Below are positions 962 to 63,414 of a DNA stretch of 64,000 nt, one piece after another. Within the stretch, counting starts at the first letter, position 1. Every line of letters begins with the position of its first letter. Under the pieces are notes generated by a model. It ran no database searches. It was not told the DNA's origin and was given only the letters and a program-made list of their open reading frames with translations. The stretch spans positions 87,783 to 151,782 of the forward strand of contig JABIEQ010000002.1 of the NCBI GenBank assembly GCA_018651085.1, given 5' to 3'. The translations under genes were made by a program, and so were the position numbers. Source of the DNA: Candidatus Magasanikiibacteriota bacterium. GTDB lineage: Bacteria > Patescibacteriota > Patescibacteriia > Magasanikbacterales > UBA922.

Positions 962-2469
<1,508 letters not shown>

Positions 2470-2763: not shown

Positions 2764-3486
2764 TTACATGAGTCCATCGTTTCTTGTTGTGAGAAGCTCA
2801 GTACTTGTTATATGTTGTTGTTTTTGAAGTGCTGATTGAAAGGATGTTTTTTGAGTATCTTTTTTGAATGTGACAGTAAAACTATATTCTTGGACATTGT
2901 CTGTGATACTTCGTACGTGAAGGAGTGTATGATGTTTTATATATGCCTTGAAGATTGGATATAAGACATCATCAATATTATCAGATTTTGTTTGAATGTT
3001 TAGTATAAAGTCGTGAAAGTGGAATTCCCCAAAATTTGTTTTGTAAAAAATCCAGATAACGATACAACTAAATATACTTCCAATAATAGCTGCTGAATAA
3101 TTTAGGGTGCCGACGCCAAGTCCTACTACAAGGGCTAAGAAGACAAAAGCTGTGTCTCTGCTATCTTTAATTGCTGTTCTAAATCGTATAATGGTAAATG
3201 TTCCAAGAAGCGCAAATGCTGTTACGATGTTACCTCCTATTACTGCCATGGCGATGGTGGTAATAAGTGTAAGGAGTACTAATGTAATGACAAATGATTG
3301 TGAGTATGATATGCCGTGGTGTGTATGTTTGTATGTAATAGCAATTACAAGGCCTAGGAACAAGGCTACAAGAAGATTTAAAATAACGATGTCTATAGAA
3401 AATGTTGTTTGTGGAATCTGTGCGAGGAGTGTTTCTATCATATAATTATTTAGTAAGTGTTGGTCGAATATGTTGTAGACCAGCAC
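2764..3486 (-). CDS. Polytopic membrane protein, DUF4956-like. Assigned by typical size and by gene context with VTC and CotH.
   Basis: 240 aa, four or more hydrophobic helices; last gene of the CotH/VTC cluster. Confidence 0.45.
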   Translation of the reverse strand: MLVYNIFDQHLLNNYMIETLLAQIPQTTFSIDIVILNLLVALFLGLVIAITYKHTHHGISYSQSFVITLVLLTLITTIAMAVIGGNIVTAFALLGTFTIIRFRTAIKDSRDTAFVFLALVVGLGVGTLNYSAAIIGSIFSCIVIWIFYKTNFGEFHFHDFILNIQTKSDNIDDVLYPIFKAYIKHHTLLHVRSITDNVQEYSFTVTFKKDTQKTSFQSALQKQQHITSTELLTTRNDGLM

Positions 3487-4135
3487 AGTATTTTGAGTAT
3501 GATGTTTGTTGTAGAGAGAATATTTTTATAAACATATTTACCCATGTAGGAAGGTAAGTATGATATTTCAATTCTATAATTGCTTGATCTGTGAGTAGTG
3601 TACTGTTGGTCTGAGTAAATGTAAAGTCATTAGGAATACAGCTTTGAAGGTCACGATCTATGGTAATACGAATATGAGGATGTTGAATACCAATTAATGG
3701 TTGACGGGTATAGCTTATAAGTGTTGTGGGGCGTAGTGTATCTTGTATGTATAGGTGTCTGAAAGCATTGTCAATTGAATACATATCAGATTGTTGTTTT
3801 ATTGTGTTTGCCTCAAGTTGTATTCGCTCTTTGGTGATAACTGCTCCGTGTTTATATTTAATCTCAGCAAAAATGTTAGATTTTCCATGCGTTTTAGTGT
3901 GGTATTGTCGTAAGCGAAATTTTTTTCTTTTCATTATACCGTATATTTTTTCGAAATAATATTTCAGTGTAGGGGTGTCAAAATATATGCTATGTACAAC
4001 ATATGATTTTGTTATGGGATCAGCGTAGGAAAGGTCCGGTTTAGCAAAGCGGGATAAAAAGAATAGGATTTTTGGTAGATCTTTTTTATTAACGATGTAC
4101 TTGTATTCAAATCTTTTTATTTGTGTTGTAAGCAT
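3446..4135 (-). CDS. VTC/CYTH-like triphosphate-tunnel domain protein (polyphosphate-polymerase-like)
   Basis: 229 aa, no TM; N-terminal RFEYKYIV motif resembles the CYTH EXEXK start; context with DUF4956 and CotH is a recurrent bacterial neighbourhood (established knowledge, not verified by search). Confidence 0.45.
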   Translation of the reverse strand: MLTTQIKRFEYKYIVNKKDLPKILFFLSRFAKPDLSYADPITKSYVVHSIYFDTPTLKYYFEKIYGIMKRKKFRLRQYHTKTHGKSNIFAEIKYKHGAVITKERIQLEANTIKQQSDMYSIDNAFRHLYIQDTLRPTTLISYTRQPLIGIQHPHIRITIDRDLQSCIPNDFTFTQTNSTLLTDQAIIELKYHTYLPTWVNMFIKIFSLQQTSYSKYCAGLQHIRPTLTK

Positions 4136-4136
4136 A

Positions 4137-5294
4137 TTATTTTTTAAAACGATGGGCTTGGCTGTACTTACTATTATTTTGTGGAATAATATCTATTTTT
4201 ATTGATTTGAGTGCTTGAGTAATGTGTTCTTGGATTTCTTGTTGGTTTTGTAGGAATTGATTTTTTATAAAGGTGTTTTTTTCGTATTGATCTGTCTGCT
4301 TTTGTATTAATGTATCTAGTTTTGTGGAAGTATTTCTTTCAAATTCTATTTCTATTTCTTGAGATGTTCCTAATAGTTTGGGAGCAAAGGGTTTGCGTTG
4401 TGATAAAAATTGTAGATATTTTTTTCCGTCGTATACTCTGAATGTATCAAGAGATATGATAAAAGCTTGTTCTGGATTAGGCCCTGATCCCCAAGGGGAT
4501 GGAACATTTAGATGGATTCTTTCCCTTTCTGTTATAACCGCTACGGAAGGGGATAGTGCGATTTTTTGTATGTTGGGATCCTTTTTTTGCAGATATGCCA
4601 TGAGTTTTTGAGAAGGAAGGAGATGATATTGTTTGAATTTTCCTCGTTGTAGGTACGTTATGTAGGTTGTGATATCCCATGGTTGGTTTGGGGGAAGGTT
4701 GTTTTCGTTAAACGGGGTTGATTCTTTACGAAATTCAAATCGAGTTTCTTCTGTTTCACTTAATCCTGCATCTATGTGTGTACGGTTTATTTTTGTTTGA
4801 TATTCCATGCGAGATGGAAAAGATTTTGTATTCAGTGGATCGTTTAAATAAGAGGCAAATATGTTCTGGTTTTTAAATCTCTGTCTTAGTCTATAGAGTG
4901 CTTTATTATTGAACAGTGTATCGTCTTTTGTGTCAAAGTATATATCAAAAAAAATAGAAGAATTTGTGGACGTAGTTATATAGTATGCTTGGGATAATGC
5001 TTCTGGAGGATTGAAGTTATCTTTATCTATTTGTAGTTGCAGTTCTTTTTCAATATGTGCAATCATTTCTTTTGTGGAATATAAGGATGTTGATGGTGTT
5101 TGAATAGATAATTTAAATTCTCTTTCTATTCTTGAAGGAGTACCTGTTGCGGTTTTTTTTGTGATACTTATTGATGTAGTAATTTTGGAAGTGGGAATAC
5201 CAAAAATTGTGATTATAATAATAAGTAGTCCGATTGTACTTAAGATTAGGATGTGTTGGTATTTTCGACACAGGATTGGTATGGAAATTGTCAT
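4137..5294 (-). CDS. Membrane-anchored CYTH-domain protein
   Basis: N-terminal TM helix, then RIEREFKL (canonical CYTH ExExK signature); 385 aa. Confidence 0.45.
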   Translation of the reverse strand: MTISIPILCRKYQHILILSTIGLLIIIITIFGIPTSKITTSISITKKTATGTPSRIEREFKLSIQTPSTSLYSTKEMIAHIEKELQLQIDKDNFNPPEALSQAYYITTSTNSSIFFDIYFDTKDDTLFNNKALYRLRQRFKNQNIFASYLNDPLNTKSFPSRMEYQTKINRTHIDAGLSETEETRFEFRKESTPFNENNLPPNQPWDITTYITYLQRGKFKQYHLLPSQKLMAYLQKKDPNIQKIALSPSVAVITERERIHLNVPSPWGSGPNPEQAFIISLDTFRVYDGKKYLQFLSQRKPFAPKLLGTSQEIEIEFERNTSTKLDTLIQKQTDQYEKNTFIKNQFLQNQQEIQEHITQALKSIKIDIIPQNNSKYSQAHRFKK

Positions 5295-6967
5295 ATATTA
5301 TTTTTTTGTGGAGGTGAAAGTTTCCAAGGGTGTATACTTGTTGCATTTGTATTATCTGGACAGTTGTCATTTTTTTGGAGTGTTTGTAATACTTTATTTA
5401 TCGTGTTTTTGAATGTGATCGTAGAAATATTAATGTTTTCTGATAAGATGAATTGATAAGAAAGAGGAGCTGGGATTGCATGGGGAGGATTTGAGGTGTC
5501 TCTTCCTGGATAAAATATCATATTTTTATTTGAAGGAGAAAGAACCTCTTTTGATGTGACTTCTTCTCCTTTTGTTGTTATTATTGACGTGATTGTGTGA
5601 CTCGATACTCCGTTGACTTGTATAATGAGTTTTTGTCCTTTTTGCAAGAAACATAATTGTTCCTGTCCTATTTTTTTTGTAAATTCTGTTGATGAATTAT
5701 TAATACTTTTTTGTAATATTGTTATTTTTTCTTGCCAGATTTTTGGGGTTATTTTTTTGTATCGATAAAATGAGTAGTAGTCGTGTTTCTGTGTTGCTGC
5801 TAGAGTTTTTGTTATTTTAGATATTTCGTCGTTTATACTATCCGTGATTCCTGATGTTAATAGATTGTATATGTAGTTGTATTTTTGTTGTACAAAATAA
5901 GGATCTTTGTGAAGAAGAATAATTAGATCATTACTTATGATATCTAATTGAAATTCTCCTGTGTATGCGTTGTCTACGGTTCTTGTTAAAAATGTTGCAT
6001 CCCAGGGAATCTGTTGGAACTTTTGTATATCTTCATTGAAATACAATTTTACGTTATGTCTATTATCCCAATGTCTTATTTGGCCAATGTACATGAGTGC
6101 TCCTAGACGAATAAAGTATTCGTAATCAATAAGTGTTCTTAATTTTTTTATATCTTGTTTTTCAATAGCAAGAGATAGCTCATAGAGTTTTTGTTTGTGT
6201 TTTTCTTCTTGATCATGCGTAATACTATTTTCCCAAATAAAAGGTGCTCGAAATACAGAGGTTCCTATTCCTGGTTTTTTTGTAAAGGAAATATTTTCTG
6301 CTTCTAGGATACTTCCTAAGGGCAAATTTCTTCTTTGTAAAAAGGTATTGCGATCTATAGGTTCAGATACTTGGTATAGACCTAAAAATTTTTTGTTTAG
6401 GTATACGTTTGCAAAGGCATGATCAGGTACAATGAGATCGAGTTTTTTTCCGATAAATGATGTAATATACTCTCCAATTATTATAGACCCTTTTGGAGAG
6501 ATAACTTCAACTTGATCGGCATTAAATAATATGGGGGTGTTAGATTTTTCTGATCGTAGACGAAATGATTTTTTTGGGAATCGCCAATGATGATCAATGT
6601 CTCCGCGGAGTTTTATAAGAGATTTTATGGGTGATTTTTCATCTATTTGAATGGTTGCCCCATCGTAAAATTGTTTTTTTCCAGATATAGGAAGATCATT
6701 ATATATTTGTTTAAGTGTATCTTTTTGTGTCTGTATAGATAGAGTATAGATAGAAGATAGATCTTCTTTTTTTACGAGGGCTGATTGGATACTTGCAATG
6801 ATCGTTCTTGTTACTTGATAGTGCGGTTTTGTAATTTGGTCATTTCCATAGTTAAATGGTGTTATATTGAGATCTCTTGTCGTAAATGATATTTCAGCTA
6901 TACTAAGAAGTAATATGGCACTTGCTGCTATTATAAGGAATAAATATGTCATTTTTTTTGTGTACAT
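5291..6967 (-). CDS. cotH: CotH-family atypical protein kinase-like protein, secreted (signal peptide)
   Basis: N-terminal signal peptide MTYLFLIIAASAILLLSIAEI; central block IPWDATFLTRT resembling the CotH PWD(L)D motif; 558 aa, typical CotH size. Confidence 0.55.
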   Translation of the reverse strand: MYTKKMTYLFLIIAASAILLLSIAEISFTTRDLNITPFNYGNDQITKPHYQVTRTIIASIQSALVKKEDLSSIYTLSIQTQKDTLKQIYNDLPISGKKQFYDGATIQIDEKSPIKSLIKLRGDIDHHWRFPKKSFRLRSEKSNTPILFNADQVEVISPKGSIIIGEYITSFIGKKLDLIVPDHAFANVYLNKKFLGLYQVSEPIDRNTFLQRRNLPLGSILEAENISFTKKPGIGTSVFRAPFIWENSITHDQEEKHKQKLYELSLAIEKQDIKKLRTLIDYEYFIRLGALMYIGQIRHWDNRHNVKLYFNEDIQKFQQIPWDATFLTRTVDNAYTGEFQLDIISNDLIILLHKDPYFVQQKYNYIYNLLTSGITDSINDEISKITKTLAATQKHDYYSFYRYKKITPKIWQEKITILQKSINNSSTEFTKKIGQEQLCFLQKGQKLIIQVNGVSSHTITSIITTKGEEVTSKEVLSPSNKNMIFYPGRDTSNPPHAIPAPLSYQFILSENINISTITFKNTINKVLQTLQKNDNCPDNTNATSIHPWKLSPPQKNNI

Positions 6968-7912: not shown

Positions 7913-10591
7913 ATGTCTTTTTATAAACATCGTAAGAATACATATATTCTTGTAATGGGTATATTTTTAATTGTCACTAGTTTATTACATAGTGGAGTTC
8001 GTGACAACCTTTTTAAAATTTATCAAGTTGGTGCACTTCATCTATCTCCTAGCAGTTGTACTGTTTTTCATAGTGCTGGGTATTGTGGTGCTCCTGGAGG
8101 GGATACTGATCCACCAGCTATTTCTTCTATTAAATTTGATGGAGTTTTGCAAGGGTCAGTCGGGACTTTGACATCTTCAACTGGTGTTATTGAAATTGTT
8201 CTTACTGAAGGTGAAACGGCTTTTGGTGCTGATTGTGCTAGTAATTTAAGTAATGTGAAGGTGAAGGCGGACACTGCCGGTACTCTTATAAGTGAGGGAT
8301 CAGGAATTAGTGAAATAGGGGGAGTTGGTGGTGCTCTAACGTGTACTTGGACTGGGACTTACACCATTAGTGCTGGCACTTCTGATACAGGCGCTTTTGT
8401 GGAAATTGGTACTATTCAAGATGATGCTATTATACCTAATTCTGCATCTAATCAATCAGGTGCAGGTACCTTTGCGGTAAGTATTCCTTCTGGAAATACG
8501 GTTCCAACGGTAAGCGCTATAACGCCGTCACAGACTACAGGATCTATTGTGGCATTTTCTCCAACAGTGGCTGATAGCGATAGCGATGTTACGAATCTTA
8601 TTGTTGAGCATTCTATTGATGGTATTACTTGGACTTCTAGTACATTATTTGTGGTTACTGAAACAGAAGGAGTTGATGGTGTTACTACGTCTACTGGAAA
8701 TATTGCTGATATTGATACTGATAATGATGGTTCAGTCACTTTTACGACAATTCAATGGGATGCTGGGACGGATCTTCCCAATACAGAGGATAGTAGTGTG
8801 TTTTTACGGGCTACTCCGAATGATGGTACGTTAAATGGATCTTCAGCTACGTCTAGTGCATTTGTGCTTGATACGAAAGATCCTACGGCTCCAGGTAATC
8901 TAACTATTGCGAATACCTCTACTACCGCTGTTACGTTTACATATGGTACGGTATCGACTGATGATAATTTTGTGGATTATCGTATTTTTTATAAAGAAGG
9001 TTCTTCTGGCGTCACTACAAGCGATACTTCTTTTACTTCTACAACGGACAGTAATTTGGGAAGTATTAGTTTTAGTTCAGCGACTACTTCAACAATATCA
9101 AGTCTTAGTCTTAATACCCAGTATGTAGCTAACATTTGGGCTTTTGATGGATTTGCTCATTCTACTGCTGCAAGCTCTGAAATTGCATTTTATACTCTTG
9201 CTGCTGCCCCTGGTACGCCAACTATCTCAAGTGTTGGAGAAACTAGCATGAGTTTTACGTTTGCTGGAGAATCTAATCCTACTACGACGGTTCATTCTAT
9301 TTTTGATACAAATGCTGGTCTTTATGTTGCTGCTGATAATGATCTTGACGCAACTACTGCTATATTTCAAACTACTTCTACATGGAGTACACCAACTATT
9401 TCTGGATTGTCCTTAAATACACAATATTGTTTTGGAACATTAGCTAGAAATGGAGATAATATTGAAACAGCGACAACAACTGCAGCGTGTGCGTATACGT
9501 TAGCTGCTGGGCCTGGTTCTGTTACTACCGATATTTTATCCAGTAAGATTACTGTCTCTTGGAATGTAAATGGTAATCCATCTGGTACGGAGTTTTATGC
9601 TTCTATTAGTTCAGGTGGCTCTTGTGGCTGGTCTGCTGATCTTACGACGTGTACGTTTACAGGTTTATCCCAATATACTTCTTATGTGATCACTGTGAAA
9701 TCTCGTAATGGGGATACTATTGAAGCTGTCGCTGGTGCTCTTACACTAAGAACTCTTGCTTCTGGAGGAAGTACACCGACTGCTTCTACTCCTTCTTTGG
9801 GTGGATTATTTAATGGATCAAGGGACTTTAAAGCTGTTGTCATTAATGATGGAGAATCAGAAACTGATTTATTAGACCTTCAATTAACTCTTAAGGCAAC
9901 AAATGTTACGCATATCGCTGTTGCTATTGATGGACTGTTTAACGATGTCTCTTTTGAACCTTTTTCTGAAGAGACTTCTTTTCGTATACCTGTTGATGTC
10001 TCTGGTGATAAACTTGTTTGTGTGAGGTTCCGTGCTTTTGGAGGTGGTACTTCTGATGTCTGTGATTCTATCAAATATGTTAAAAAACAGACACAAAGTT
10101 TGTCTACGTCTGATCCTGAAATACAAGAAGCTGTAAAGGATAAAGAAGTTGTTTCTGAGTTGTTTGATGATGGTTGTCCACTTGTTCGTCAAAAACCATA
10201 TAGGGTCGGAGGTACCAAAGGGGTGTATTATATTACTGTTGAATGTACTAAGCGTATATTTACGAGTCCAGATATATACTTTTCTTATTTTAGATCTTGG
10301 GACGAAATATCTGTGGTTACTCTTGATCAGTTGTCGTTTGTTGAGTATGATTCTTTTTTATATGTTCCTTGGGGACCGTTTAGTTCTCTTTCGAATCATT
10401 CTTTTGTAAATGTGCTTGGAAGTTCAAAAATCTATTTTATTCTTGAAAAAAATCGGCATTTGATTTCTTCTCCTGAAGCGTTGAAAATATTACGTTCACC
10501 GTTTGAGATAATTCATGTTGTAGGTCAATCTTTTTTAGATTTGTATTTTGACGAAGATATTATTTTAGAAAATCATTCCGGACTTTTTTAG
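7913..10591 (+). CDS. Large Thr/Ser-rich cell-surface protein with fibronectin-III-like repeats
   Basis: 892 aa; N-terminal TM/signal; repeated blocks YTLAAAPGTPTISSVGETSMSFTF / YTLAAGPGSVTTDILSSKITVSW typical of Fn3 domains; about 30% Thr+Ser. Confidence 0.55.
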   Translation: MSFYKHRKNTYILVMGIFLIVTSLLHSGVRDNLFKIYQVGALHLSPSSCTVFHSAGYCGAPGGDTDPPAISSIKFDGVLQGSVGTLTSSTGVIEIVLTEGETAFGADCASNLSNVKVKADTAGTLISEGSGISEIGGVGGALTCTWTGTYTISAGTSDTGAFVEIGTIQDDAIIPNSASNQSGAGTFAVSIPSGNTVPTVSAITPSQTTGSIVAFSPTVADSDSDVTNLIVEHSIDGITWTSSTLFVVTETEGVDGVTTSTGNIADIDTDNDGSVTFTTIQWDAGTDLPNTEDSSVFLRATPNDGTLNGSSATSSAFVLDTKDPTAPGNLTIANTSTTAVTFTYGTVSTDDNFVDYRIFYKEGSSGVTTSDTSFTSTTDSNLGSISFSSATTSTISSLSLNTQYVANIWAFDGFAHSTAASSEIAFYTLAAAPGTPTISSVGETSMSFTFAGESNPTTTVHSIFDTNAGLYVAADNDLDATTAIFQTTSTWSTPTISGLSLNTQYCFGTLARNGDNIETATTTAACAYTLAAGPGSVTTDILSSKITVSWNVNGNPSGTEFYASISSGGSCGWSADLTTCTFTGLSQYTSYVITVKSRNGDTIEAVAGALTLRTLASGGSTPTASTPSLGGLFNGSRDFKAVVINDGESETDLLDLQLTLKATNVTHIAVAIDGLFNDVSFEPFSEETSFRIPVDVSGDKLVCVRFRAFGGGTSDVCDSIKYVKKQTQSLSTSDPEIQEAVKDKEVVSELFDDGCPLVRQKPYRVGGTKGVYYITVECTKRIFTSPDIYFSYFRSWDEISVVTLDQLSFVEYDSFLYVPWGPFSSLSNHSFVNVLGSSKIYFILEKNRHLISSPEALKILRSPFEIIHVVGQSFLDLYFDEDIILENHSGLF

Positions 10592-10692
10592 TGGATATTT
10601 TTTAAAAGGTATTAGAAAAAGAGCTGTTACAGCTCTTTTTTTGGATATAATAAAAAAATTGTGCAGAGTCGTTTATATTTTTTGTTTGGAGT

Positions 10693-10718
10693 GTACGAGG
10701 GCGCTTGGGCCCTCGTAC
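10693..10718. repeat. Perfect GC-rich palindrome GTACGAGGGC-gcttgg-GCCCTCGTAC
   Basis: 10-bp perfect arms seen in sequence; stands out in AT-rich DNA; no adjacent T-run. Confidence 0.5.
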
Positions 10719-10732
10719 GACTCGGGTCAAGT

Positions 10733-11107
10733 TCACTCCCACCAGCGTAGTACTGTTGCTGCAATGGGGACGATAAGGAGAAGCGCTTCGATGACGATGA
10801 TGCCCATGAAGGCCAGCGTGATATCGAAGGTTTTGTTTCTTTGCTGGCTGCTTTTCTCGACGCTGTCTTTCCAGTCAGTGGCAACTTGTTGCTTGGCTGA
10901 CGGGAGCATCTTTATGTGGATTTCTCCACTAAGATTTCGGCTCAGGGCTTCCTTTCTTCTGCCGAGCATTTCTCTGAATATCTTCCAGGATTTTCCTCCG
11001 AAGAGAATATTCTGGATGATAGCCACCATGATGGTGACGAGTAAGAGGATCAGAATGGGAAATTGATATTCCCCAGCGAGGAGCACAGCACCTTGAAGCG
11101 TTTTCAT
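10733..11107 (-). CDS. Small two-TM membrane protein in a GC-enriched gene, driven by a consensus promoter
   Basis: 124 aa; TM helices at N and C termini; consensus TTGACA-N17-TATATT promoter upstream on the minus strand. Confidence 0.45.
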   Translation of the reverse strand: MKTLQGAVLLAGEYQFPILILLLVTIMVAIIQNILFGGKSWKIFREMLGRRKEALSRNLSGEIHIKMLPSAKQQVATDWKDSVEKSSQQRNKTFDITLAFMGIIVIEALLLIVPIAATVLRWWE

Positions 11108-11182
11108 CTACCAGATCCTTTGTCGATTGTGGGTCGGAACTTGGCGATTTTTCGAGCTGGGTAGCCCAGAAAAATACTATTA

Positions 11183-11250
11183 AATATAGCATATTTTTCG
11201 TGTTTTGTCAAGGTCTTTTCCTTGACAAATAGGCAAAAAAGCCCTATATT
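11183..11250. promoter_or_regulatory. Divergent promoter pair with -35 boxes embedded in the palindrome TTGTCAAGG-N7-CCTTGACAA
   Basis: plus: TTGACA 11222-11227, N17, TATATT 11245-11250, ahead of the U32 gene; minus: TTGACA (revcomp of 11206-11211), N17, TATATT (revcomp of 11183-11188), ahead of the 124-aa gene. Confidence 0.5.
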
Positions 11251-11269
11251 TAGGGAAAATATATACTTT

Positions 11270-12520
11270 ATGAAAAAACGAATAGAAATTATGTCACCGG
11301 CTGGTTCGCAAGCTGCTATGCAAGCAGCACTTGATGCCGGCGCTAATGCCATTTACTTTGGTATTGAACAATTAAACATGCGAGCAAGAGCTGCTAATAA
11401 TTTTACGCTTGAAGATCTTCCTCGGATTGCTGAGCTTTGTGGATCTAAGAATGTTCGGACGTATTTAACGCTCAACACTATTTTGTATGATCACGATATA
11501 ACGCTCATGAAAAAGATTTGTGATGCAGCAAAAGAAGCTGGTATTACGGCAATTATTGCAAGTGACATTGCGGCTATTTCTTATGCGCATTCTATTGGTT
11601 TAGAAATTCATATTTCAACACAAACTAACGTTACAAATATCGAAGCTGTGAAATTTTTTGCAGCGTATGCTGACGTTATTGTGCTCGCACGAGAATTAAC
11701 ATTGCAACAAGTTACAAAGATTCATGAAGATATTATTCGTGATGATGTGAAGGGACCAAGTGGAGAACTTGTTCAAATTGAACTGTTTGCCCACGGAGCT
11801 CTATGTGTTGCGATCTCTGGAAAATGTTTTATGAGTTTAGCAACGCATAACGCTTCAGCTAATAGAGGAGCATGTGCACAAAATTGTAGACGATCGTACC
11901 GCGTGATTGATGAAGATACTGGGGTGGAATTGGTGCTTGATAATAAATATGTGATGTCGCCGAAAGATCTTTGTACCATTGGAATTGTTGATAAAGTTAT
12001 TGATGCAGGGGTGACGGTGTTTAAATTAGAAGGACGAGGACGTTCACCTGATTATGTTTCAACTGTTACAAAATGTTATAGAGAAGCAGCGGATGCATAC
12101 TTAGAAGGAACATACACCGAAGAAAAAATTACTGCGTGGGTAGCAGAACTTGAAACGGTATATAACCGTGGGTTTTGGCATGGTGGATATTATTTAGGGA
12201 AAAAGATGGGGGAGTGGAGTGGTAGTTATGGAAATCAATCGACAAAAGAAAATATTTTCCTTGGTCCTGTAAAATCGTTTTTTGTACAAGCTAATGTTGG
12301 AGAGTTTCAAATGGAAACAGGTGAGTTATCTGTTGGGGAAGAAATTTTGGTGACTGGTCCCACAACAGGTGCATTTAAAATGGTTGTTGAAGAACTTCGA
12401 GTGGATGGTGAACCTGCAAAAAAAGCAGTGAAGGGTGATTTAATTACTATTAAAACAAATAGTCGAGTTAGAAAGAGTGATAAACTATTTGTGGTTCGTG
12501 ATCGAGTGAAAGTACAATAA
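11270..12520 (+). CDS. Peptidase-U32-family Fe-S protein (RlhA/TrhP/UbiU-like hydroxylase family)
   Basis: MKKRIEIMSPAGS...GANAIYFG U32 N-terminus; CVAISGKC-x15-CAQNC matches CX6CX15CX3C, the Fe-S motif of U32 hydroxylases. Confidence 0.8.
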   Translation: MKKRIEIMSPAGSQAAMQAALDAGANAIYFGIEQLNMRARAANNFTLEDLPRIAELCGSKNVRTYLTLNTILYDHDITLMKKICDAAKEAGITAIIASDIAAISYAHSIGLEIHISTQTNVTNIEAVKFFAAYADVIVLARELTLQQVTKIHEDIIRDDVKGPSGELVQIELFAHGALCVAISGKCFMSLATHNASANRGACAQNCRRSYRVIDEDTGVELVLDNKYVMSPKDLCTIGIVDKVIDAGVTVFKLEGRGRSPDYVSTVTKCYREAADAYLEGTYTEEKITAWVAELETVYNRGFWHGGYYLGKKMGEWSGSYGNQSTKENIFLGPVKSFFVQANVGEFQMETGELSVGEEILVTGPTTGAFKMVVEELRVDGEPAKKAVKGDLITIKTNSRVRKSDKLFVVRDRVKVQ

Positions 12521-12781
12521 TTGTTTGATATGTCTAAGATTTTGCATTTTCGAAATAATTGTATTGGTTGTGGAAGTTGTACGCTTCATGCGCCTGGTTA
12601 TTGGGAAATGGATGAAAAAGATGGAAAGGCAAATCTTAAACGAGGAAAATTGTGTGGTAAGGTTGATCAGCTTGATGTGTATGAGGGAGAAATAGAACAA
12701 AATGTCCGTGCAGCAGAAGATTGTCCCGTTTCTATCATTCATGTGTATGATGATAATGGAAAGAAAATTTCTCCGAAATAA
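12521..12781 (+). CDS. Single-cluster 4Fe-4S ferredoxin
   Basis: 86 aa; CIGCGSC ... C ... CP pattern (CxxCxxC...CP). Confidence 0.6.
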   Translation: MFDMSKILHFRNNCIGCGSCTLHAPGYWEMDEKDGKANLKRGKLCGKVDQLDVYEGEIEQNVRAAEDCPVSIIHVYDDNGKKISPK

Positions 12782-12895
12782 TAGCGTAATGTTCTCTTTT
12801 TTGGTTAGTTATGGGGTATTTTTCCTACTATGCTTGACGGTCTGTTTTTAATCTGGGTATTATAGGTTTATTAGATAATATTTCATTATTTTTTT

Positions 12896-13369
12896 ATGTC
12901 TGAACATTTTGATCGTTTACTCGATTTAGCAAAACGTACTGGGGACCCTCTTATTGTCCATGATCCTCTCCATGGTCAAGATGTTGTTGTTATGAGCCTT
13001 GATTACTATGAAATGCTTATTAGTGCCAATTCAGGCGTTATGGGGCATGGTGTAGAGCCTGCTTGGCACACTGCTGGGGCTGTACTTGAAGATCGTTTTG
13101 AAGACATGCATGAAGAAATATCTATGCCTTCAACTCCATCAACACCTGCATTTAAGCCTTCTTCTTTTGATAGTACTCCTGTCATGGATGATTTTGCTGA
13201 TCCTTTTTCTATTCCTCCTGCTCCTGCTCCAAAGGCAGCTTCATCTGAATTACATGTTGAAGAGTTACCGTATGATGCTCCTTTTTCTGAAGAAAATAAG
13301 ACTCCATTTGGGGAGGTAGAAGGGCGTTTTGGTGATGACGATCCTGTATTTCTTGAAGAACCAGTATAA
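12896..13369 (+). CDS. Phd/YefM-like antitoxin-fold N-domain fused to an acidic Pro-rich disordered tail; no toxin partner adjacent
   Basis: PLIVHDPLHGQDVVVMSLDYYEMLI resembles the YefM [25 protein letters not shown] block; the C-terminal 100 aa are D/E/P/S-rich. Confidence 0.4.
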   Translation: MSEHFDRLLDLAKRTGDPLIVHDPLHGQDVVVMSLDYYEMLISANSGVMGHGVEPAWHTAGAVLEDRFEDMHEEISMPSTPSTPAFKPSSFDSTPVMDDFADPFSIPPAPAPKAASSELHVEELPYDAPFSEENKTPFGEVEGRFGDDDPVFLEEPV

Positions 13370-13559
13370 TTATTGTTGTGTCCCCACAAAAGCCCTTGAC
13401 GAATGATTAAAAATCTACTATAATCTAGAGCGCGTAGAAATGCGCTCATTTTTATACATTTTTTGCTTTATATAGAGCAAAACATATTTATATACGCCGC
13501 TGGATTACAAAACCAGTCTAATCACTTAGGTCAGGTGCGGCAAGCATTATTTCGTTTGT

Positions 13560-14753
13560 ATGGCAGAAGACTTTGATCGTTCAAAGCCACATGTAAACGT
13601 TGGTACTATTGGTCACGTTGATCATGGGAAGACGACTACAACTGCAGCACTTTTAGCTGTAGCAGGTGCACACGGGCTTATCGCATCAACTAAGAAAGTT
13701 GATGAAATTGACGCTGCACCAGAAGAAAAGGCACGTGGTATTACTATCGCAACAGCTCACGTTGAGTATGCGACAGAAAATCGTCACTACGCTCACGTTG
13801 ATTGTCCAGGACATGCTGATTATGTAAAAAACATGATCACAGGGGCAGCACAGATGGATGGAGCAATTTTGGTTGTTTCAGCAGCTGATGGTCCAATGCC
13901 ACAGACTCGTGAGCACATCTTGCTTGCTCGTCAAGTTGGTGTACCATATATTGTTGTATACCTTAATAAGATTGACCAAGTGACAGATCCTGAACTTATT
14001 GATCTTGTTGAAGAAGAAATTCGTGAACTTCTTACAAAATATGAATTCCCAGGAGAAACTACCCCTATTATCCGAGGATCTTCTTTGAAAGCTCTTGAAA
14101 ATCCATCTGACGAAGCTGCGGCTAAGCCAATCTTGGATCTTCTAAAAGCACTTGACGAATACATTCCTACACCTGAACGAGATCTTGATAAAGATTTCCT
14201 CATGCCTATTGAAGATGTTTTCTCAATTGAAGGGCGTGGAACAGTAGTTACTGGAAGAATTGATCGTGGTATTGTTAAAGTTGGTGAAACAGTAGAAATT
14301 GTTGGAATGGGAGTTGATGTAAGTAGTACAACAGTTACTGGAGTAGAGATGTTTAACAAGAACCTTGACCAAGGACAAGCTGGAGACAATGCTGGAATTC
14401 TTCTTCGTGGTACAAAAAAGGAAGATGTTCAACGTGGACAAGTTCTTTCTAAACCAGGAACAATTAATCCACATACTGAATTTGAAGCAGAAGTGTACGT
14501 ACTTACCAAAGAAGAAGGTGGACGTCATAAGCCATTTTTCAAAGGGTATAAACCACAGTTTTACATTCGTACAACTGACGTAACTGGTGAAGTTGAACTT
14601 CCAGAAGGAAGTGAAATGGTAATGCCAGGAGACACTGTTAAACTAAAAATTAAACTTATTGTACCAGTTGCTATGGAAGAAAAAGTTCGATTTGCTATTC
14701 GTGAGGGTGGACGAACTGTTGGAGCTGGTGTTGTAACGAAGATTCTTAACTAA
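13560..14753 (+). CDS. tuf: Elongation factor Tu
   Basis: [21 protein letters not shown] GTPase motifs; 397 aa. Confidence 0.97.
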
Positions 14754-29054: not shown

Positions 29055-29127
29055 TCCCCTGTAGTTCAATTGGTAGAACGTCGTGCTGTTAACGCGAATG
29101 TTGTAGGTTCGAACCCTGCTGGGGGAG
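29055..29127 (+). tRNA. tRNA-Asn (GTT)
   Basis: manual cloverleaf: acceptor TCCCCTG/TGGGGGA, anticodon loop CTGTTAA, T-loop GGTTCGAAC; CCA not encoded. Confidence 0.85.
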
Positions 29128-29235
29128 CTAATGTTAATTATTTATAAATATTTCAGGTCATTTTGGCTACACACCGCATTATATTGCGCTAGCATCATAA
29201 TCATGGTACGCTATTTTCACTGTTAACTTTTTTTT

Positions 29236-30531
29236 ATGCATACACACATTAAAGACATTTCAGCCTACGTCTCAAAAGAAGTAACTCTTAAGGGGTGGCT
29301 TCATAATAAACGTTCTAGCGGAAAGATTGCTTTTTTAGAAATTCGAGATGGATCTGGGTTTTTACAAATTATTGTAAACAAAAGTGATGTTGATGAAGCA
29401 ACTTGGGGGACCGTTGAGGCGTTGACGCAAGAATCATCATTCTCTGTTATCGGAGAAGTTTCTTCTCACCCTAAAAAAGAAGGGGTGTTTGAACTTCAAG
29501 CTAGAACAGTGCATGCAATTCATATTGCGACAGAATATCCAATTGGTAATAAAGATCATGGTCCTGACTTTTTGATGAATCATCGCCATCTTTGGGTTCG
29601 AAGTAAAAAACAATGGGCAACACTTCGTATTCGTGATGTGATTGAAACGGCTATTCATGACTACTTACACTCTGAAGCTTTTGTACGGACAGATTCTCCT
29701 ATTTTTACGCCAAGTGCTTGTGAAGATACAACAGAACTTTTCCCTGTACCGTATTTTGATTTAGGGGAAGCATATCTGTCTCAATCTGGGCAATTGTATC
29801 TTGAAGCTGTTATTGCTGGACTTGGACGGTGTTATGATTTTGGGCCAGTATTTCGTGCAGAAAAATCAGTGACTCGTCGTCATCTTACAGAATTTTGGAT
29901 GATGGATGCTGAAGCTGCATTTGTCGAGCATGACGAAAATATGGATACGCAAGAAGGATTAGTAAAAGCTATTGTAAAAATGTGTTTAGAACGATGTCAG
30001 GTAGAGTTTTCTATATTAGAAAGGGATACGAGTGCACTTCAAGGATTACTTGAAAAACCATTTGAACGATTGATGTATAAAGATGCCATTACCCGATTAC
30101 AATCATTAGGGTCAGACATTAAATTTGGGGAAGATCTTGGAAATGATGATGAAGGACTTCTTACAAAAGAGAGTCCTGTCCCAGTATTTATCCATAAGTG
30201 GCCAAAGGATATTAAGCCATTTTATATGAAGCGAGATGCGGAAGACGAAACACTTGTGTGTAATAATGATCTTATTGGTATTGAAGGTGCTGGAGAAATC
30301 ATTGGAGGATCTCAACGTGAAGATGACTATGATGTGTTAATGGCTCGTATTAAAGAAGATGGACTCGAAATTGAAGATTATGCCTGGTATAGTGAGCTTA
30401 GAAAATATGGATCAGTGCCTCATTCTGGGTTTGGATTAGGATTAGAACGGATGGTTCGTTGGATTGCAGGATCAGCACATATTCGTGAAACAATTCCATT
30501 TCCTCGATTAGTAAACCGTATTCGTCCATAA
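29236..30531 (+). CDS. asnS: Asparaginyl-tRNA synthetase (class IIb; an archaeal-type AspRS cannot be excluded)
   Basis: 431 aa, N-terminal anticodon-binding OB fold, class II motifs; tRNA-Asn immediately upstream; a bacterial-type aspS lies next door. Confidence 0.7.
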   Translation: MHTHIKDISAYVSKEVTLKGWLHNKRSSGKIAFLEIRDGSGFLQIIVNKSDVDEATWGTVEALTQESSFSVIGEVSSHPKKEGVFELQARTVHAIHIATEYPIGNKDHGPDFLMNHRHLWVRSKKQWATLRIRDVIETAIHDYLHSEAFVRTDSPIFTPSACEDTTELFPVPYFDLGEAYLSQSGQLYLEAVIAGLGRCYDFGPVFRAEKSVTRRHLTEFWMMDAEAAFVEHDENMDTQEGLVKAIVKMCLERCQVEFSILERDTSALQGLLEKPFERLMYKDAITRLQSLGSDIKFGEDLGNDDEGLLTKESPVPVFIHKWPKDIKPFYMKRDAEDETLVCNNDLIGIEGAGEIIGGSQREDDYDVLMARIKEDGLEIEDYAWYSELRKYGSVPHSGFGLGLERMVRWIAGSAHIRETIPFPRLVNRIRP

Positions 30532-30533
30532 GT

Positions 30534-31511: not shown

Positions 31512-31615
31512 ATAATGGAAGGAAAGGACTTGTTTAAGCCATTTTTTGGCTTATTTAGGGGTTTGCAAAATGAATTCAGTATGGTAGTATATTCTTGTAA
31601 TTTAAGCGAAAAAAT

Positions 31616-51507: not shown

Positions 51508-51531
51508 CAGTGTATGATTATATGCAAACGT

Positions 51532-63010: not shown

Positions 63011-63020
63011 TTTTTTATTG

Positions 63021-63414
63021 TGGAGATGCTGGGATTTGAACCCAGGTCTAGAGCGGGCTACCTACACACTCTACATACATAGCCGTTTTGTTGTTTCATA
63101 CTGTGATAAAAAAGCGGCAAAATCACGCAGTACTAGCCTAGGAGAATTTCAGATATACCATGCAGACACACTATATACCCTACACTCAATGTTTTGACAC
63201 CGCGGGACCATTATTGAGTATCATGGACGCGATGGCTGTGCTTATTTAGGCAACAACAGATGCGAGTGTTGGCATAGCAAATGCGTTAGCAAGTGTAGCC
63301 TTTACTCGACTGATAACGTTTGCACGTAATCGGTTGCCCCTTGATTTACGAGGGGAGACACCCTCGGTATGCATATATAGATAACGGATCCGTCTATCGA
63401 GTCCTGTCATCCCC
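63021..63414 (-). ncRNA. ssrA: tmRNA (transfer-messenger RNA)
   Basis: 5' GGGGAUGACAGGACUCGAUAGACGG; 3' GACCUGGGUUCAAAUCCCAGCAUCUCCA, a tRNA-like T-arm with encoded CCA; acceptor pairing GGGGAUG/CAUCUCC; candidate tag reading frame GCA AAC ... GUU GUU GCC UAA giving AN...ASVVA; immediately downstream of smpB. Confidence 0.8.

What the first reader, a model, noticed from the sequence alone, without database searches (positions are those of the whole stretch)
11270..12781. U32 Fe-S protein with CX6CX15CX3C motif plus dedicated ferredoxin: candidate O2-independent RNA hydroxylase pair
The U32 protein carries exactly the Cys spacing (CVAISGKC-x15-C-AQN-C) that coordinates the 4Fe-4S cluster in RlhA (23S rRNA C2501 hydroxylation), TrhP (tRNA ho5U34) and UbiU/UbiV (anaerobic ubiquinone hydroxylation). 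It is translationally coupled (stop/start adjacent at 12520/12521) to a CxxCxxC...CP single-cluster ferredoxin, a likely electron donor. A quinone-less CPR-like organism has no ubiquinone to hydroxylate, so an rRNA/tRNA nucleoside hydroxylation role is the most plausible.
Basis: partly seen in the sequence, partly recalled or inferred. Interest (0 to 1): 0.6.

Follow-up and report, generated by a model that had tools for sequence, protein, structure and literature searches.

The report
Iron-sulfur U32 hydroxylase with its ferredoxin
This two-gene unit in a tiny marine CPR bacterium encodes a PrtC-type "U32 peptidase", which looks like an oxygen-independent iron-sulfur hydroxylase most likely acting on the tRNA wobble uridine, together with a dedicated ferredoxin that accompanies it across bacteria and archaea.

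Summary
Window 11270-12520 encodes a 416-aa U32 protein with C179-x6-C186-x15-C202-x3-C206. Window 12530-12781 encodes an 83-aa single-cluster ferredoxin. The ferredoxin start is probably ATG 12530, not TTG 12521.

The U32 protein is not TrhP, RlhA or UbiU/V (28-31% identity, far below the NCBIfam cut-offs). By elimination it belongs to the uncharacterised PepU32#4 subfamily, which contains the P. gingivalis "collagenase" PrtC.

Comparative genomics gave three leads:
- A homologous ferredoxin lies directly downstream in 46 of 80 related loci (CPR, DPANN-like archaea, many Bacteroidota, Ignavibacteria-type and Pelagibacteraceae-labelled MAGs).
- A chorismate mutase, which makes prephenate, is adjacent in 7 loci.
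- An archaeal lineage fuses this U32 to a bona fide TrhO, the O2-dependent tRNA U34 hydroxylase. A Flavobacteriales MAG has trhO-U32-fdx.

Best reading: a prephenate-dependent Fe-S hydroxylase acting on tRNA U34, with the ferredoxin as its electron partner. The direction of electron flow is unresolved.

Nothing is shown biochemically. The window contains no prephenate, TrmR/Cmo or TrhO genes.

The gene is an ordinary member of a widespread family. That family has no convincing assigned function, and these links make one testable.

The parts
11222..11250 (+). Promoter-like site (TTGACA, 17 nt, TATATT; 11 of 12 matches) about 20 nt upstream of the U32 start codon.
   Evidence: This is a consensus match only, not evidence of function. 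It overlaps a mirror-image promoter-like site on the minus strand (11211-11183).
11270..12520 (+). U32-family protein, 416 aa, PrtC / PepU32#4 type. It has a TIM-barrel U32 domain (residues ~1-310) and a C-terminal beta-barrel (residues ~325-416).
   Evidence: Pfam PF01136 at E 1.5e-65. The AF2 model has confident barrel and C-terminal domains. Foldseek matches 5D88 (MK0906 U32, TMt 0.57) and 4HE5/4HE6 (U32 C-terminal domain, TMt 0.88, rmsd 1.2 A), plus EF-Tu domain-2-like barrels. Orthologues share 53-73% identity.
11780..11887 (+). Codons for the catalytic Glu171 and the four-Cys motif C179-x6-C186-x15-C202-x3-C206. This is the predicted [4Fe-4S] site.
   Evidence: These residues are invariant in 79/79 family members and align with the residues shown to be essential in TrhP and RlhA and with the Fe-S ligands of UbiU (PMC6599085, PMC5727448, PMC6747719). 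AF2 confidence is below 50 in this stretch.
12242..12517 (+). C-terminal beta-barrel domain (Peptidase_U32_C / EF-Tu domain-2-like). It is basic (pI about 9) and is a candidate RNA-binding module.
   Evidence: PF16325 scores only E 0.044 in the window protein but exceeds its cut-off in the close homologue P0022. Structural match to 4HE5. pI. The RNA-binding role is inferred.
12530..12781 (+). Single-cluster ferredoxin, 83 aa (C11-x2-C14-x2-C17...C65-P66). An in-frame alternative start, TTG 12521, abuts the U32 stop codon.
   Evidence: Fer4_13 scores 39.9 bits and Fer4_15 37.5 bits, both above their cut-offs. The nearest solved relatives are the monocluster ferredoxins 1DAX, 1IQZ and 2Z8Q. A homologue lies directly downstream of the U32 gene in 46/80 GTDB loci and in 6 further loci. 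Conserved R8, C11, C14, C17, W25, D31-G32-K33, L36 and C65-P66 are shown.

Best explanation
The two genes form a bicistronic unit encoding a cytoplasmic, oxygen-independent hydroxylase system.

Shown by sequence:
- The 416-aa protein is a U32 TIM-barrel enzyme of the PrtC / PepU32#4 subfamily.
- It keeps the Glu and the four Cys that are essential in TrhP and RlhA and that ligate a [4Fe-4S] cluster in UbiU and TrhP.
- It carries the TrhP-type C-terminal beta-barrel.
- The 83-aa protein is a monocluster [4Fe-4S]-type ferredoxin that travels with this U32 subfamily across phyla and domains.

Inferred:
- The enzyme hydroxylates C5 of a pyrimidine in RNA, most likely the wobble uridine (U34) of tRNAs, giving ho5U.
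- Prephenate serves as the hydroxyl donor.
- The two electrons taken from the base pass through the enzyme's cluster to the ferredoxin, which relays them to the cell.
- Alternatively, the ferredoxin supplies an activating electron. The direction of flow is not resolved.

In this organism it would substitute for TrhP and TrhO.
For: 1. Active-site conservation. E171, C179, C186, C202 and C206 are invariant in 79/79 members and align with TrhP E162/C170/C177/C193/C197 and RlhA E161/C169/C176/C192/C196. TrhP is an experimentally confirmed [4Fe-4S] protein (PMC11138216).

2. Ferredoxin partnership. A homologous ferredoxin lies immediately downstream on the same strand in 46/80 species-level loci, mostly with -1/-4 overlaps. 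It is also present in L091-L095 and the P0038 locus. The rest of the neighbourhood is not conserved.

3. Prephenate link. A chorismate mutase (PF01817, above cut-off) is adjacent in 7 loci from archaeal and Bacteroidota lineages. These include overlapping U32-CM-Fd operons (L010, L015, L092) and a CM-U32-Fd operon (L029).

4. tRNA U34 link.
- There are single-ORF fusions of this U32 type with a complete TrhO. These are P0300 (774 aa), P0397 (800 aa, on 13 contigs from ENA and JGI), P0152 and P0401.
- The TrhO part scores 244.7 bits against an equivalog cut-off of 170.
- The fusion ORF has no internal stop, and the junction Gly is GGA.
- A Flavobacteriales MAG has trhO-U32-fdx (L021; TrhO 250 bits).

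5. Architecture. U32 plus U32_C matches TrhP, TrhP2 and PrtC. It has no DUF3656, which marks RlhA, and it is not the short UbiU/V form.

6. Phyletic gap. Bacteroides, Porphyromonas and Capnocytophaga have TrmR but no TrhO or TrhP. Bacteroides species are listed with only PepU32#4 and RlhA1 (Sakai 2019 Supplementary Data 1 and 2).

7. The protein has no signal peptide; the N-terminus is strand 1 of the barrel.
Against: - Identity is only 28% to TrhP, and the score is 174 bits against the 534-bit equivalog cut-off. Function cannot be transferred by orthology.
- The TrhO links are rare: one operon in 80 loci and one archaeal fusion lineage.
- Chlorobium and Akkermansia carry PepU32#4 but lack TrmR and CmoA/B in Sakai's table.
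- The 64-kb window contains no chorismate mutase, shikimate, TrmR, CmoA/B or TrhO gene. CPR bacteria generally lack aromatic biosynthesis (general knowledge), so the source of the O donor is unexplained.
- xo5U-type modifications have not been reported in archaea or CPR, to my knowledge.
- No U32 enzyme has been reconstituted in vitro in any paper of the held library (PMC10990095, PMC11574389).
- A low-potential ferredoxin is an odd oxidant for an aromatic ring.
- Collagenase activity has been reported for PrtC-type proteins (PMC5727448, PMC12768972).
- The AF2 model is unreliable around the cluster site.
Confidence: 0.5

Rival explanations
1. It is the same Fe-S, prephenate-dependent hydroxylase chemistry with the ferredoxin partner, but it acts on a different RNA position. 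Candidates are 23S rRNA C2501 (as for RlhA) or a site not yet described.
For: Identity is as high to RlhA (30%) as to TrhP (28%). Some PepU32#4-bearing taxa (Chlorobium, Akkermansia) lack the enzymes that elaborate ho5U34. The very high conservation between CPR and DPANN proteins (64-73%) suits a universal macromolecular substrate such as rRNA.
Against: The protein has no DUF3656, the domain unique to the RlhA subfamily. Bacteroidota carry RlhA1 as well as PepU32#4, so the two are not redundant. The fusion and operon partners are TrhO, a tRNA U34 enzyme.
Confidence: 0.15
2. The U32-ferredoxin pair hydroxylates or otherwise oxidises a small molecule, such as a cofactor or lipid precursor. UbiU-UbiV does this for ubiquinone intermediates.
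For: UbiU is the closest E. coli paralogue by identity (31%) and gives the second-best NCBIfam score. Chorismate mutase adjacency fits any prephenate-dependent reaction. One archaeal locus has CM-U32-aminotransferase, which reads like a metabolic module (L025).
Against: CPR and DPANN organisms have minimal metabolism and generally no quinones (general knowledge). There is no UbiT/SCP2 protein or second U32 partner nearby. No metabolic gene other than chorismate mutase recurs next to the pair. The TrhO fusion and the EF-Tu-domain-2-like C-terminal barrel point to tRNA.
Confidence: 0.15
3. It is a true collagenase or peptidase, as annotated for its subfamily prototype PrtC of Porphyromonas gingivalis.
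For: The subfamily contains PrtC, for which collagen degradation was reported. A recombinant Veillonella prtC gave collagenase activity in a 2025 study (PMC5727448; PMC12768972). Database names are 'collagenase' or 'U32 family peptidase'.
Against: The protein has no signal peptide. The hosts are free-living marine or groundwater CPR, DPANN-like archaea and Pelagibacteraceae-labelled MAGs, with no obvious collagen source (host ecology is inferred from the sample and record names). The Fe-S Cys and Glu are invariant. The gene is in operons with ferredoxin, chorismate mutase and TrhO. No peptidase catalytic mechanism is known for U32 (PMC5727448). My recollection, not checked here, is that P. gingivalis collagenolysis was later attributed to gingipains.
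Confidence: 0.03

Closest known systems
TrhP (YegQ) of E. coli, and TrhP1/TrhP2 (YrrN/YrrO) of B. subtilis: prephenate-dependent tRNA U34 hydroxylation
   Same: It shares the U32 TIM barrel, the identical Glu and C-x6-C-x15-C-x3-C motif, and a U32_C beta-barrel at the C-terminus. It is predicted to be cytoplasmic and O2-independent. As in E. coli, where TrhP and TrhO are redundant, relatives of this protein are fused to or in an operon with TrhO.
   Different: Identity is only 28%, and the score is 174 bits against the 534-bit equivalog cut-off. It lacks the roughly 50-residue insertion that TrhP has after the Cys motif, and it has its own roughly 10-residue insertion near residue 160. A dedicated ferredoxin gene is adjacent, which is not the case at E. 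coli trhP. No experimental data exist.
PrtC of Porphyromonas gingivalis (MEROPS U32 prototype; subfamily PepU32#4 of Kimura et al. 2017)
   Same: It is the same subfamily by elimination. The 53-60% identical, end-to-end orthologues occur in Bacteroidota, Akkermansia and Draconibacterium, whose only listed U32 proteins are PepU32#4 and the DUF3656-bearing RlhA1. The U32 plus U32_C architecture also matches.
   Different: PrtC is described as a collagenase and virulence factor. Here the context (ferredoxin, chorismate mutase, TrhO; CPR and DPANN-like hosts) argues for a redox enzyme. Bacteroidales members, the order that includes Porphyromonas, mostly lack the adjacent ferredoxin. I could not obtain the PrtC sequence itself for a direct comparison.
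RlhA (YdcP): 23S rRNA C2501 hydroxylation
   Same: It has the same Glu and Cys motif and 30% identity. RlhA is also prephenate- and iron-dependent.
   Different: RlhA has DUF3656 and often a second U32 domain, and is 650-850 aa long. Neither feature is present here.
UbiU-UbiV(-UbiT): anaerobic ubiquinone hydroxylation
   Same: It is a U32 Fe-S protein that uses prephenate as O donor and that needs a so-far-unidentified electron acceptor (PMC6747719, PMC10990095).
   Different: UbiU and UbiV form a heterodimer of two short U32 proteins with different Cys spacings, plus an SCP2 lipid carrier. Here there is one long U32 protein plus a ferredoxin, no UbiT, and the scores are far below the cut-offs.
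Monocluster ferredoxins of the Fer4_13/Fer4_15 type (D. africanus Fd I, B. thermoproteolyticus Fd, P. furiosus Fd)
   Same: It has one CxxCxxC...CP cluster site, a size of 60-85 aa, and sits in an operon with the enzyme it serves. From general knowledge, not checked here: ferredoxins of this type also act as partners of P450 enzymes.
   Different: It forms its own conserved clade that travels with PepU32#4, marked by R8, W25, DGK31-33 and L36. No ferredoxin partner has been described for a U32 enzyme in the papers I could read. My recollection that E. coli YfhL affects ho5U (Lauhon 2019) could not be checked, because that paper is not held.

Membership tests
Peptidase U32 superfamily (PF01136) | The Pfam PF01136 domain scores above its gathering threshold. 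| tested here: met
   221.2 bits against a cut-off of 22.4, over residues 80-308.
Peptidase U32 superfamily (PF01136) | A TIM-barrel fold like the only solved U32 catalytic domain (MK0906, PDB 5D88). | tested here: met
   Foldseek matches 5D88 at E 1.6e-6 with TMt 0.57. The barrel segments of the AF2 model have pLDDT around 90. No PDB relative is detectable by sequence alone.
U32 Fe-S hydroxylases ('U32 oxidases': TrhP, RlhA, UbiU/V) | A four-Cys motif CX6CX15CX3/4C and a conserved Glu, aligned with the residues shown experimentally to be essential. | tested here: met
   E171, C179, C186, C202 and C206 align with TrhP E162/C170/C177/C193/C197 and RlhA E161/C169/C176/C192/C196. They are invariant in 79/79 relatives.
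U32 Fe-S hydroxylases ('U32 oxidases': TrhP, RlhA, UbiU/V) | The protein binds a [4Fe-4S] cluster. | not testable with these tools
   This needs purification with UV-vis, EPR and iron analysis. The AF2 model has pLDDT below 50 across residues 177-232.
U32 Fe-S hydroxylases ('U32 oxidases': TrhP, RlhA, UbiU/V) | Activity depends on prephenate as the oxygen donor. | tested here: inconclusive
   A chorismate mutase (PF01817) is adjacent to the U32 gene in 7 relatives. No chorismate mutase is present in this 64-kb window, and the rest of the genome could not be read.
TrhP (NCBIfam NF011996 equivalog) | The score reaches the curated equivalog cut-off of 534 bits. | tested here: not met
   174.5 bits, matching only the N-terminal half (residues 3-214).
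TrhP (NCBIfam NF011996 equivalog) | A U32 domain is followed by a Peptidase_U32_C beta-barrel. | tested here: met
   Structural match to 4HE5 with TMt 0.88 and rmsd 1.2 A. PF16325 is weak in the window protein (E 0.044) but above its cut-off in the close homologue P0022.
TrhP (NCBIfam NF011996 equivalog) | The protein is required for ho5U34 formation in tRNA. | not testable with these tools
   Only indirect evidence is available: the fusion with TrhO and the operon with trhO in relatives.
RlhA | A DUF3656 domain (PF12392) is present C-terminal to the U32 domain. | tested here: not met
   The window protein and its orthologues have no PF12392 hit. The distant 1084-aa relative P0290 does have it.
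UbiU / UbiV | The NCBIfam equivalog cut-offs are reached (440 and 275 bits), and a paired second U32 gene and a UbiT gene are present. | tested here: not met
   Scores are 160.3 and 50.4 bits. No second U32 gene or SCP2 gene is found in the window or in related loci.
PepU32#4 subfamily (includes PrtC; Kimura 2017, Sakai 2019) | The protein is orthologous to the single-domain, DUF3656-less U32 protein of taxa listed as having only PepU32#4 plus RlhA1. | tested here: met
   End-to-end orthologues with 53-60% identity occur in Akkermansia (L071, 423 aa), Draconibacterium-labelled MAGs (L042, L077) and many other Bacteroidota. Those taxa are listed as PepU32#4 plus RlhA1. The family is monophyletic against E. 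coli TrhP, RlhA and UbiU. The assignment is by elimination.
PepU32#4 subfamily (includes PrtC; Kimura 2017, Sakai 2019) | The protein falls inside the published PepU32#4 clade together with the reference sequences (P33437, H1YXA1). | not tested
   The reference sequences could not be fetched by accession, and the AFDB library was unavailable.
Monocluster [4Fe-4S] ferredoxin (Fer4_13 / Fer4_15) | Pfam matches above cut-off, and the CxxCxxC...CP ligand set is present. | tested here: met
   39.9 and 37.5 bits against cut-offs of 24.5 and 22.4. C11, C14, C17 and C65-P66 are invariant in 47 homologues. The nearest PDB entries are 1DAX and 1IQZ.

The most novel reading that the evidence does not exclude
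The PrtC / PepU32#4-ferredoxin pair is the missing oxygen-independent tRNA U34 hydroxylase of Bacteroidota, CPR bacteria and DPANN archaea. Three consequences would follow:
- The co-evolved ferredoxin would be the long-sought electron-transfer partner of U32 hydroxylases, the component whose absence may explain why none has been reconstituted in vitro.
- xo5U-type wobble modification would exist in ultra-small CPR and DPANN cells, including archaea, where it has never been reported.
- The founding 'U32 collagenase' PrtC would be a mis-assigned RNA-modifying enzyme.
Probability: 0.35. Interest if true: 0.7.

Novelty: new variant of a known kind. Interest (0 to 1): 0.55.

Why it matters
U32 proteins are an emerging class of anaerobic hydroxylases that use prephenate as the oxygen donor. 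In the papers I could read, no member has been reconstituted in vitro and the electron acceptor is unknown (PMC10990095, PMC11574389).

PepU32#4 is one of the largest U32 subfamilies. It is still labelled 'collagenase' and is used as such in current medical microbiome work (PMC12768972).

Three genomic links emerged from this locus. None of them appears in the papers I could search:
- a ferredoxin that accompanies the enzyme across domains of life
- an adjacent chorismate mutase
- fusion with TrhO

Together they give a concrete, testable assignment: tRNA U34 hydroxylation. They also name a candidate redox partner to include in reconstitution assays.

If the assignment is right, it fills the 'TrmR but no hydroxylase' gap in Bacteroides and Porphyromonas. 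It would also imply wobble-uridine hydroxylation in CPR and DPANN organisms, which must obtain prephenate or chorismate despite their minimal metabolism.

Tried and rejected
- **PDB sequence searches.** Searches with the protein and with a family profile found no U32 relative. Only fold comparison worked.
- **AFDB50 fold search.** I wanted it to tie the protein to UniProt accessions in the published PepU32#4 list, but the library was not available.
- **Lauhon 2019.** This is the paper I recall linking ferredoxin YfhL to ho5U synthesis. It is not held, and a text search for YfhL plus hydroxyuridine gave only irrelevant papers. The precedent is therefore cited as memory only.
- **Adjacency to tuf and the S10/spc ribosomal operon as evidence for a translation role.** Rejected. 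The pair has its own promoter-like site. The next genes have their own promoter-like sites and a terminator. The neighbourhood differs in every other lineage.
- **The 157-aa ORF downstream (12896-13369) as a third component.** Rejected. It has no family match and no homologue in any related locus.
- **An apparent recurrent ABC-ATPase neighbour (8 loci).** It dissolved on a direct search into unrelated ABC proteins.
- **A substitute partner in the ferredoxin-less loci.** No Fe-S-motif ORF or recurrent downstream gene was found.
- **The U32::TrhO fusion as an artefact of UGA recoding or a frameshift.** Rejected. There is no internal stop under table 11, the junction Gly is GGA, neighbouring genes end in TGA, and the fusion recurs on at least 13 contigs from two sources.
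- **P0150 (505 aa, three matched stretches).** This is an internal duplication or assembly artefact, not a new architecture.
- **Rfam scan of 10500-13600.** It found no riboswitch or leader.
- **Overall pI as a hint of RNA binding.** Uninformative, because TrhP itself is acidic.
- **TrmR, CmoA/B, TrhO, chorismate mutase and shikimate genes.** None was found in the window.
Full report
**What is in the window**

ORF 11270-12520 (+) encodes a 416-aa protein. Its only significant Pfam match is Peptidase_U32 (PF01136, E 1.5e-65, residues 80-308).

The next ORF ends at 12781 and matches the single-cluster ferredoxin families Fer4_13 and Fer4_15 above their cut-offs. Its ligand set is C11-x2-C14-x2-C17...C65-P66.

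The TTG at 12521 does abut the U32 stop codon. However, 47 aligned homologues begin at the Met that corresponds to ATG 12530, and public annotation aa. The spacer is therefore most likely 9 nt.

For the U32 gene, ATG 11270 is preferable to the 409-aa call at 11291, because invariant Glu6 lies upstream of Met8. A near-consensus promoter-like site (TTGACA-17-TATATT) lies at 11222-11250.

The following genes are a 157-aa orphan ORF and tuf. Each has its own promoter-like site, and a terminator-like hairpin lies at 13428-13447. The two genes therefore look like a separate bicistronic unit, not part of the tuf/S10 operon.

The organism is a Candidatus Magasanikbacteria (CPR) MAG. It has been recovered repeatedly from marine samples, one of them labelled 150 m, and the longest contig is 863 kb.

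**Which U32 protein it is**

Identity to the four E. coli paralogues is 28% (TrhP), 30% (RlhA), 31% (UbiU) and 18% (UbiV). NCBIfam scores are far below every equivalog cut-off: TrhP 174.5 against 534, UbiU 160 against 440, UbiV 50 against 275. It is a member of none of the characterised families.

The catalytic signature is nevertheless intact. Glu171 and Cys179/186/202/206 align with TrhP E162/C170/C177/C193/C197, RlhA E161/C169/C176/C192/C196 and UbiU C169/C176/C193. They are invariant in all 79 family members examined.

Those residues are essential in TrhP and RlhA (PMC6599085, PMC5727448). They ligate a [4Fe-4S] cluster in UbiU (PMC6747719). TrhP is a confirmed [4Fe-4S] protein (PMC11138216).

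The AF2 model (mean pLDDT 75.9) is confident for the TIM barrel and for a C-terminal beta-barrel. It is below 50 around the Cys loop.

Foldseek matches three groups of structures:
- the barrel resembles the only solved U32 domain (5D88, TMt 0.57)
- the C-terminal domain resembles the Geobacillus U32 C-terminal domain (4HE5, TMt 0.88, rmsd 1.2 A)
- the C-terminal domain also resembles EF-Tu domain-2-type barrels

The architecture is therefore U32 plus U32_C, as in TrhP, TrhP2 and PrtC. It lacks DUF3656, which is unique to RlhA (PMC5727448).

**Subfamily assignment**

Close relatives are abundant. Proteins with 64-73% identity occur in CPR bacteria and in Woesearchaeota-, Pacearchaeota- and Nanoarchaeota-type archaea.

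A scan of one genome per GTDB species returned 596 confirmed relatives. The best 80 share 53-68% identity end to end. Apart from the CPR and DPANN-like genomes, most are Bacteroidota. The rest are Pelagibacteraceae-labelled, Ignavibacteria-type, Akkermansia, Lentisphaeria and other MAGs.

Supplementary Data 1 of Sakai et al. lists Bacteroides, Flavobacterium, Draconibacterium and Akkermansia as having exactly two U32 types: PepU32#4 and the DUF3656-bearing RlhA1. The roughly 415-aa, DUF3656-less orthologues found here in those taxa must therefore be PepU32#4.

Kimura et al. place the P. gingivalis 'collagenase' PrtC in PepU32#4. PrtC has the same U32 plus U32_C architecture.

In a neighbour-joining tree the 79 sequences form one tight clade, well separated from E. 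coli TrhP, RlhA and UbiU. The CPR sequences are nested among DPANN-like archaeal ones, which suggests inter-domain transfer.

In the library of 50%-identity cluster representatives, 13,200 proteins match at E<=1e-3 and 4,769 at E<=1e-30.

**The ferredoxin is a family-level partner**

In 46 of the 80 loci a homologue of the window ferredoxin (phmmer E 4e-24 to 5e-7) is present on the same strand downstream of the U32 gene. In 45 of them it lies within 300 nt, and most overlap the U32 gene by 1-4 nt.

Six further loci reached through protein look-ups also have it. In one of them a toxin-antitoxin pair is inserted between the two genes.

Nothing else in the neighbourhood is conserved.

The ferredoxins form a coherent clade with invariant C11, C14, C17 and C65-P66. 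R8, W25, D31-G32-K33 and L36 are also conserved. The nearest solved relatives are the monocluster ferredoxins of D. africanus, B. thermoproteolyticus and P. furiosus.

The partner is present in the CPR/DPANN branch and in the Flavobacteriia/Cytophagia/Sphingobacteriia/Ignavibacteria branch. It is mostly absent in Bacteroidales and in the PVC members (Akkermansia, Lentisphaeria, Pontiella). No substitute partner is adjacent in those loci. I infer, without a test, that they use a housekeeping ferredoxin or flavodoxin.

**Link to prephenate**

Seven loci carry a chorismate mutase (PF01817, above the gathering score) next to the U32 gene:
- overlapping U32-CM-Fd operons in three archaeal genomes (L010, L015, L092)
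- CM-U32 in another archaeon (L025), followed there by an aminotransferase
- CM-U32-Fd in a Bacteroidota MAG (L029)
- divergently oriented CM-domain proteins in two more Bacteroidota MAGs (L033, L055)

Chorismate mutase makes prephenate. Prephenate is required for the TrhP and RlhA reactions and is the demonstrated oxygen donor for UbiU/V (PMC6599085, PMC5727448, PMC10990095).

I found no paper in the held library that mentions this gene linkage.

**Link to tRNA U34**

Among the best representatives, P0152 (670 aa, 54% identical to the window protein over residues 2-412) continues into UPF0176_N and rhodanese domains. Its relative P0300 (774 aa) carries a complete TrhO module. That module scores 244.7 bits against the NCBIfam TrhO equivalog, whose cut-off is 170.

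The DNA (L096:3155-5479) is one ORF without an internal stop under the standard code. The junction glycine is GGA, and neighbouring genes end in TGA. The fusion is therefore not a recoding or frameshift artefact.

Variants of 800 and 749 aa occur on 13 and 3 contigs from ENA and JGI assemblies. The host is an archaeon: it has uS2 of the archaeal/eukaryotic type, and a TYW1 gene lies two genes away.

Independently, a Flavobacteriales MAG (L021) has trhO (250 bits)-U32-fdx on one strand. One Magasanikbacteria genome (L016) has a single-domain rhodanese ORF immediately upstream of its U32 gene.

TrhO is the O2-dependent tRNA U34 hydroxylase that works redundantly with TrhP in E. coli (PMC6599085). 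A fusion of the two types is the strongest available hint that this U32 subfamily acts on the same substrate.

The phyletic data fit. In Sakai's Supplementary Data 2, Bacteroides, Porphyromonas and Capnocytophaga have TrmR (ho5U to mo5U) but neither TrhO nor TrhP. The authors made the same argument for PepU32#1 and PepU32#2, but not for PepU32#4.

**Most likely mechanism**

Shown by sequence: a cytoplasmic U32 barrel with the hydroxylase Glu/Cys signature and a TrhP-type C-terminal barrel, co-expressed with a monocluster ferredoxin.

Inferred: C5 hydroxylation of tRNA U34. Prephenate would supply the hydroxyl group and be converted to phenylpyruvate and CO2.

In the published model the substrate ring is oxidised by two electrons, and the clusters carry these to an unidentified acceptor (PMC10990095). 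A low-potential ferredoxin would, however, be a poor oxidant. A role in reductive activation cannot be excluded.

**Weaknesses**

- Orthology to TrhP is not met.
- The TrhO links are rare.
- Chlorobium and Akkermansia have PepU32#4 without TrmR or CmoA/B.
- The window has no chorismate mutase, TrmR, CmoA/B or TrhO gene, and the rest of the genome could not be read.
- CPR bacteria usually lack aromatic biosynthesis (general knowledge), so the donor supply is open.
- Collagenase activity is still claimed for PrtC-type proteins.

I put about 0.75 on 'Fe-S hydroxylase/oxidase with ferredoxin partner' and about 0.5 on tRNA U34 specifically. The rivals are another RNA site at 0.15, a small-molecule substrate at 0.15, and a protease at 0.03.

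**Novelty and verdict**

The gene pair itself is an ordinary, widely distributed and routinely annotated pair ('U32 family peptidase' and 'ferredoxin'). That uncharacterised U32 subfamilies are probably hydroxylases has been proposed since 2017-2019.

What is not in the literature I could search is threefold:
- the conserved ferredoxin partner
- the chorismate mutase linkage
- the TrhO fusion for the PrtC subfamily

Together these turn a generic guess into a specific, testable assignment and offer a candidate for the missing redox partner of U32 hydroxylases. I rate it a new variant of a known kind, with interest 0.55.

Noticed in passing
L096:3155-5479; L097 and L098:10001-12403: A DPANN-type archaeon (archaeal uS2; TYW1 two genes away) encodes a single 774-800 aa protein that fuses a PrtC-type U32 domain to a complete TrhO. 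In Sakai's table TrhO is otherwise absent from archaea. A generic class I SAM methyltransferase is divergently adjacent.
   Followed up: yes
L025:4744-7455: An archaeal locus has chorismate mutase, then U32, then a class I/II aminotransferase-like gene, with no ferredoxin. An aminotransferase could recycle the phenylpyruvate left after prephenate donates its oxygen. This arrangement was seen only once.
   Followed up: partly
L093:4001-6158: A PemK/MazE-type toxin-antitoxin pair is inserted between the U32 gene and its ferredoxin. The pair remains on one strand.
   Followed up: no
L017 and L019: The U32-ferredoxin pairs from two Pelagibacteraceae-labelled MAGs nest inside the Flavobacteriales branch of the tree. 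This reflects either horizontal transfer or a binning error.
   Followed up: no
window 962-2468: A complete 16S rRNA gene (1440 bits) has no 23S or 5S gene next to it. The next gene is on the opposite strand, so the rRNA genes appear to be unlinked.
   Followed up: no
window 10592-11269: A roughly 680-nt stretch between the fn3 surface protein and the U32 gene has no called gene. It contains two back-to-back near-consensus promoter-like sites: plus strand 11222-11250 and minus strand 11211-11183, the latter with a TG extension. Only overlapping, unconvincing ORFs lie there, and there is no Rfam match.
   Followed up: partly
window 12896-13369: A 157-aa ORF with an acidic, proline-rich C-terminal half lies between the ferredoxin gene and tuf. 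It has its own promoter-like site and a terminator-like hairpin at 13428-13447. It has no Pfam or NCBIfam match and no homologue in any related locus.
   Followed up: partly
window 2764-6967 (minus strand): A gene cluster encodes DUF4956, a VTC-domain protein, an unknown 385-aa protein and a CotH-family protein. It is followed by an 892-aa Ser/Thr-rich fibronectin-III surface protein on the plus strand (7913-10591).
   Followed up: no
window 29236-33382: An RsmB/F-type m5C RNA methyltransferase (30534-31511) is sandwiched between two class II Asp/Asn-type tRNA synthetase genes. These are a 431-aa protein and a 588-aa protein with a GAD domain. A tRNA-Asn gene lies just upstream at 29055-29128.
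   Followed up: no
window 51514-56919 and 63018-63414: A very large ORF (1801 aa) of unexamined function, and a tmRNA gene with tag peptide ANAFAMPTLASVVA.
   Followed up: no
P0158 and P0180: More distant U32 relatives (about 42-43% identity) are fused to a NUDIX domain at the C-terminus or to an HD domain at the N-terminus. Both are nucleotide-directed hydrolase folds.
   Followed up: no
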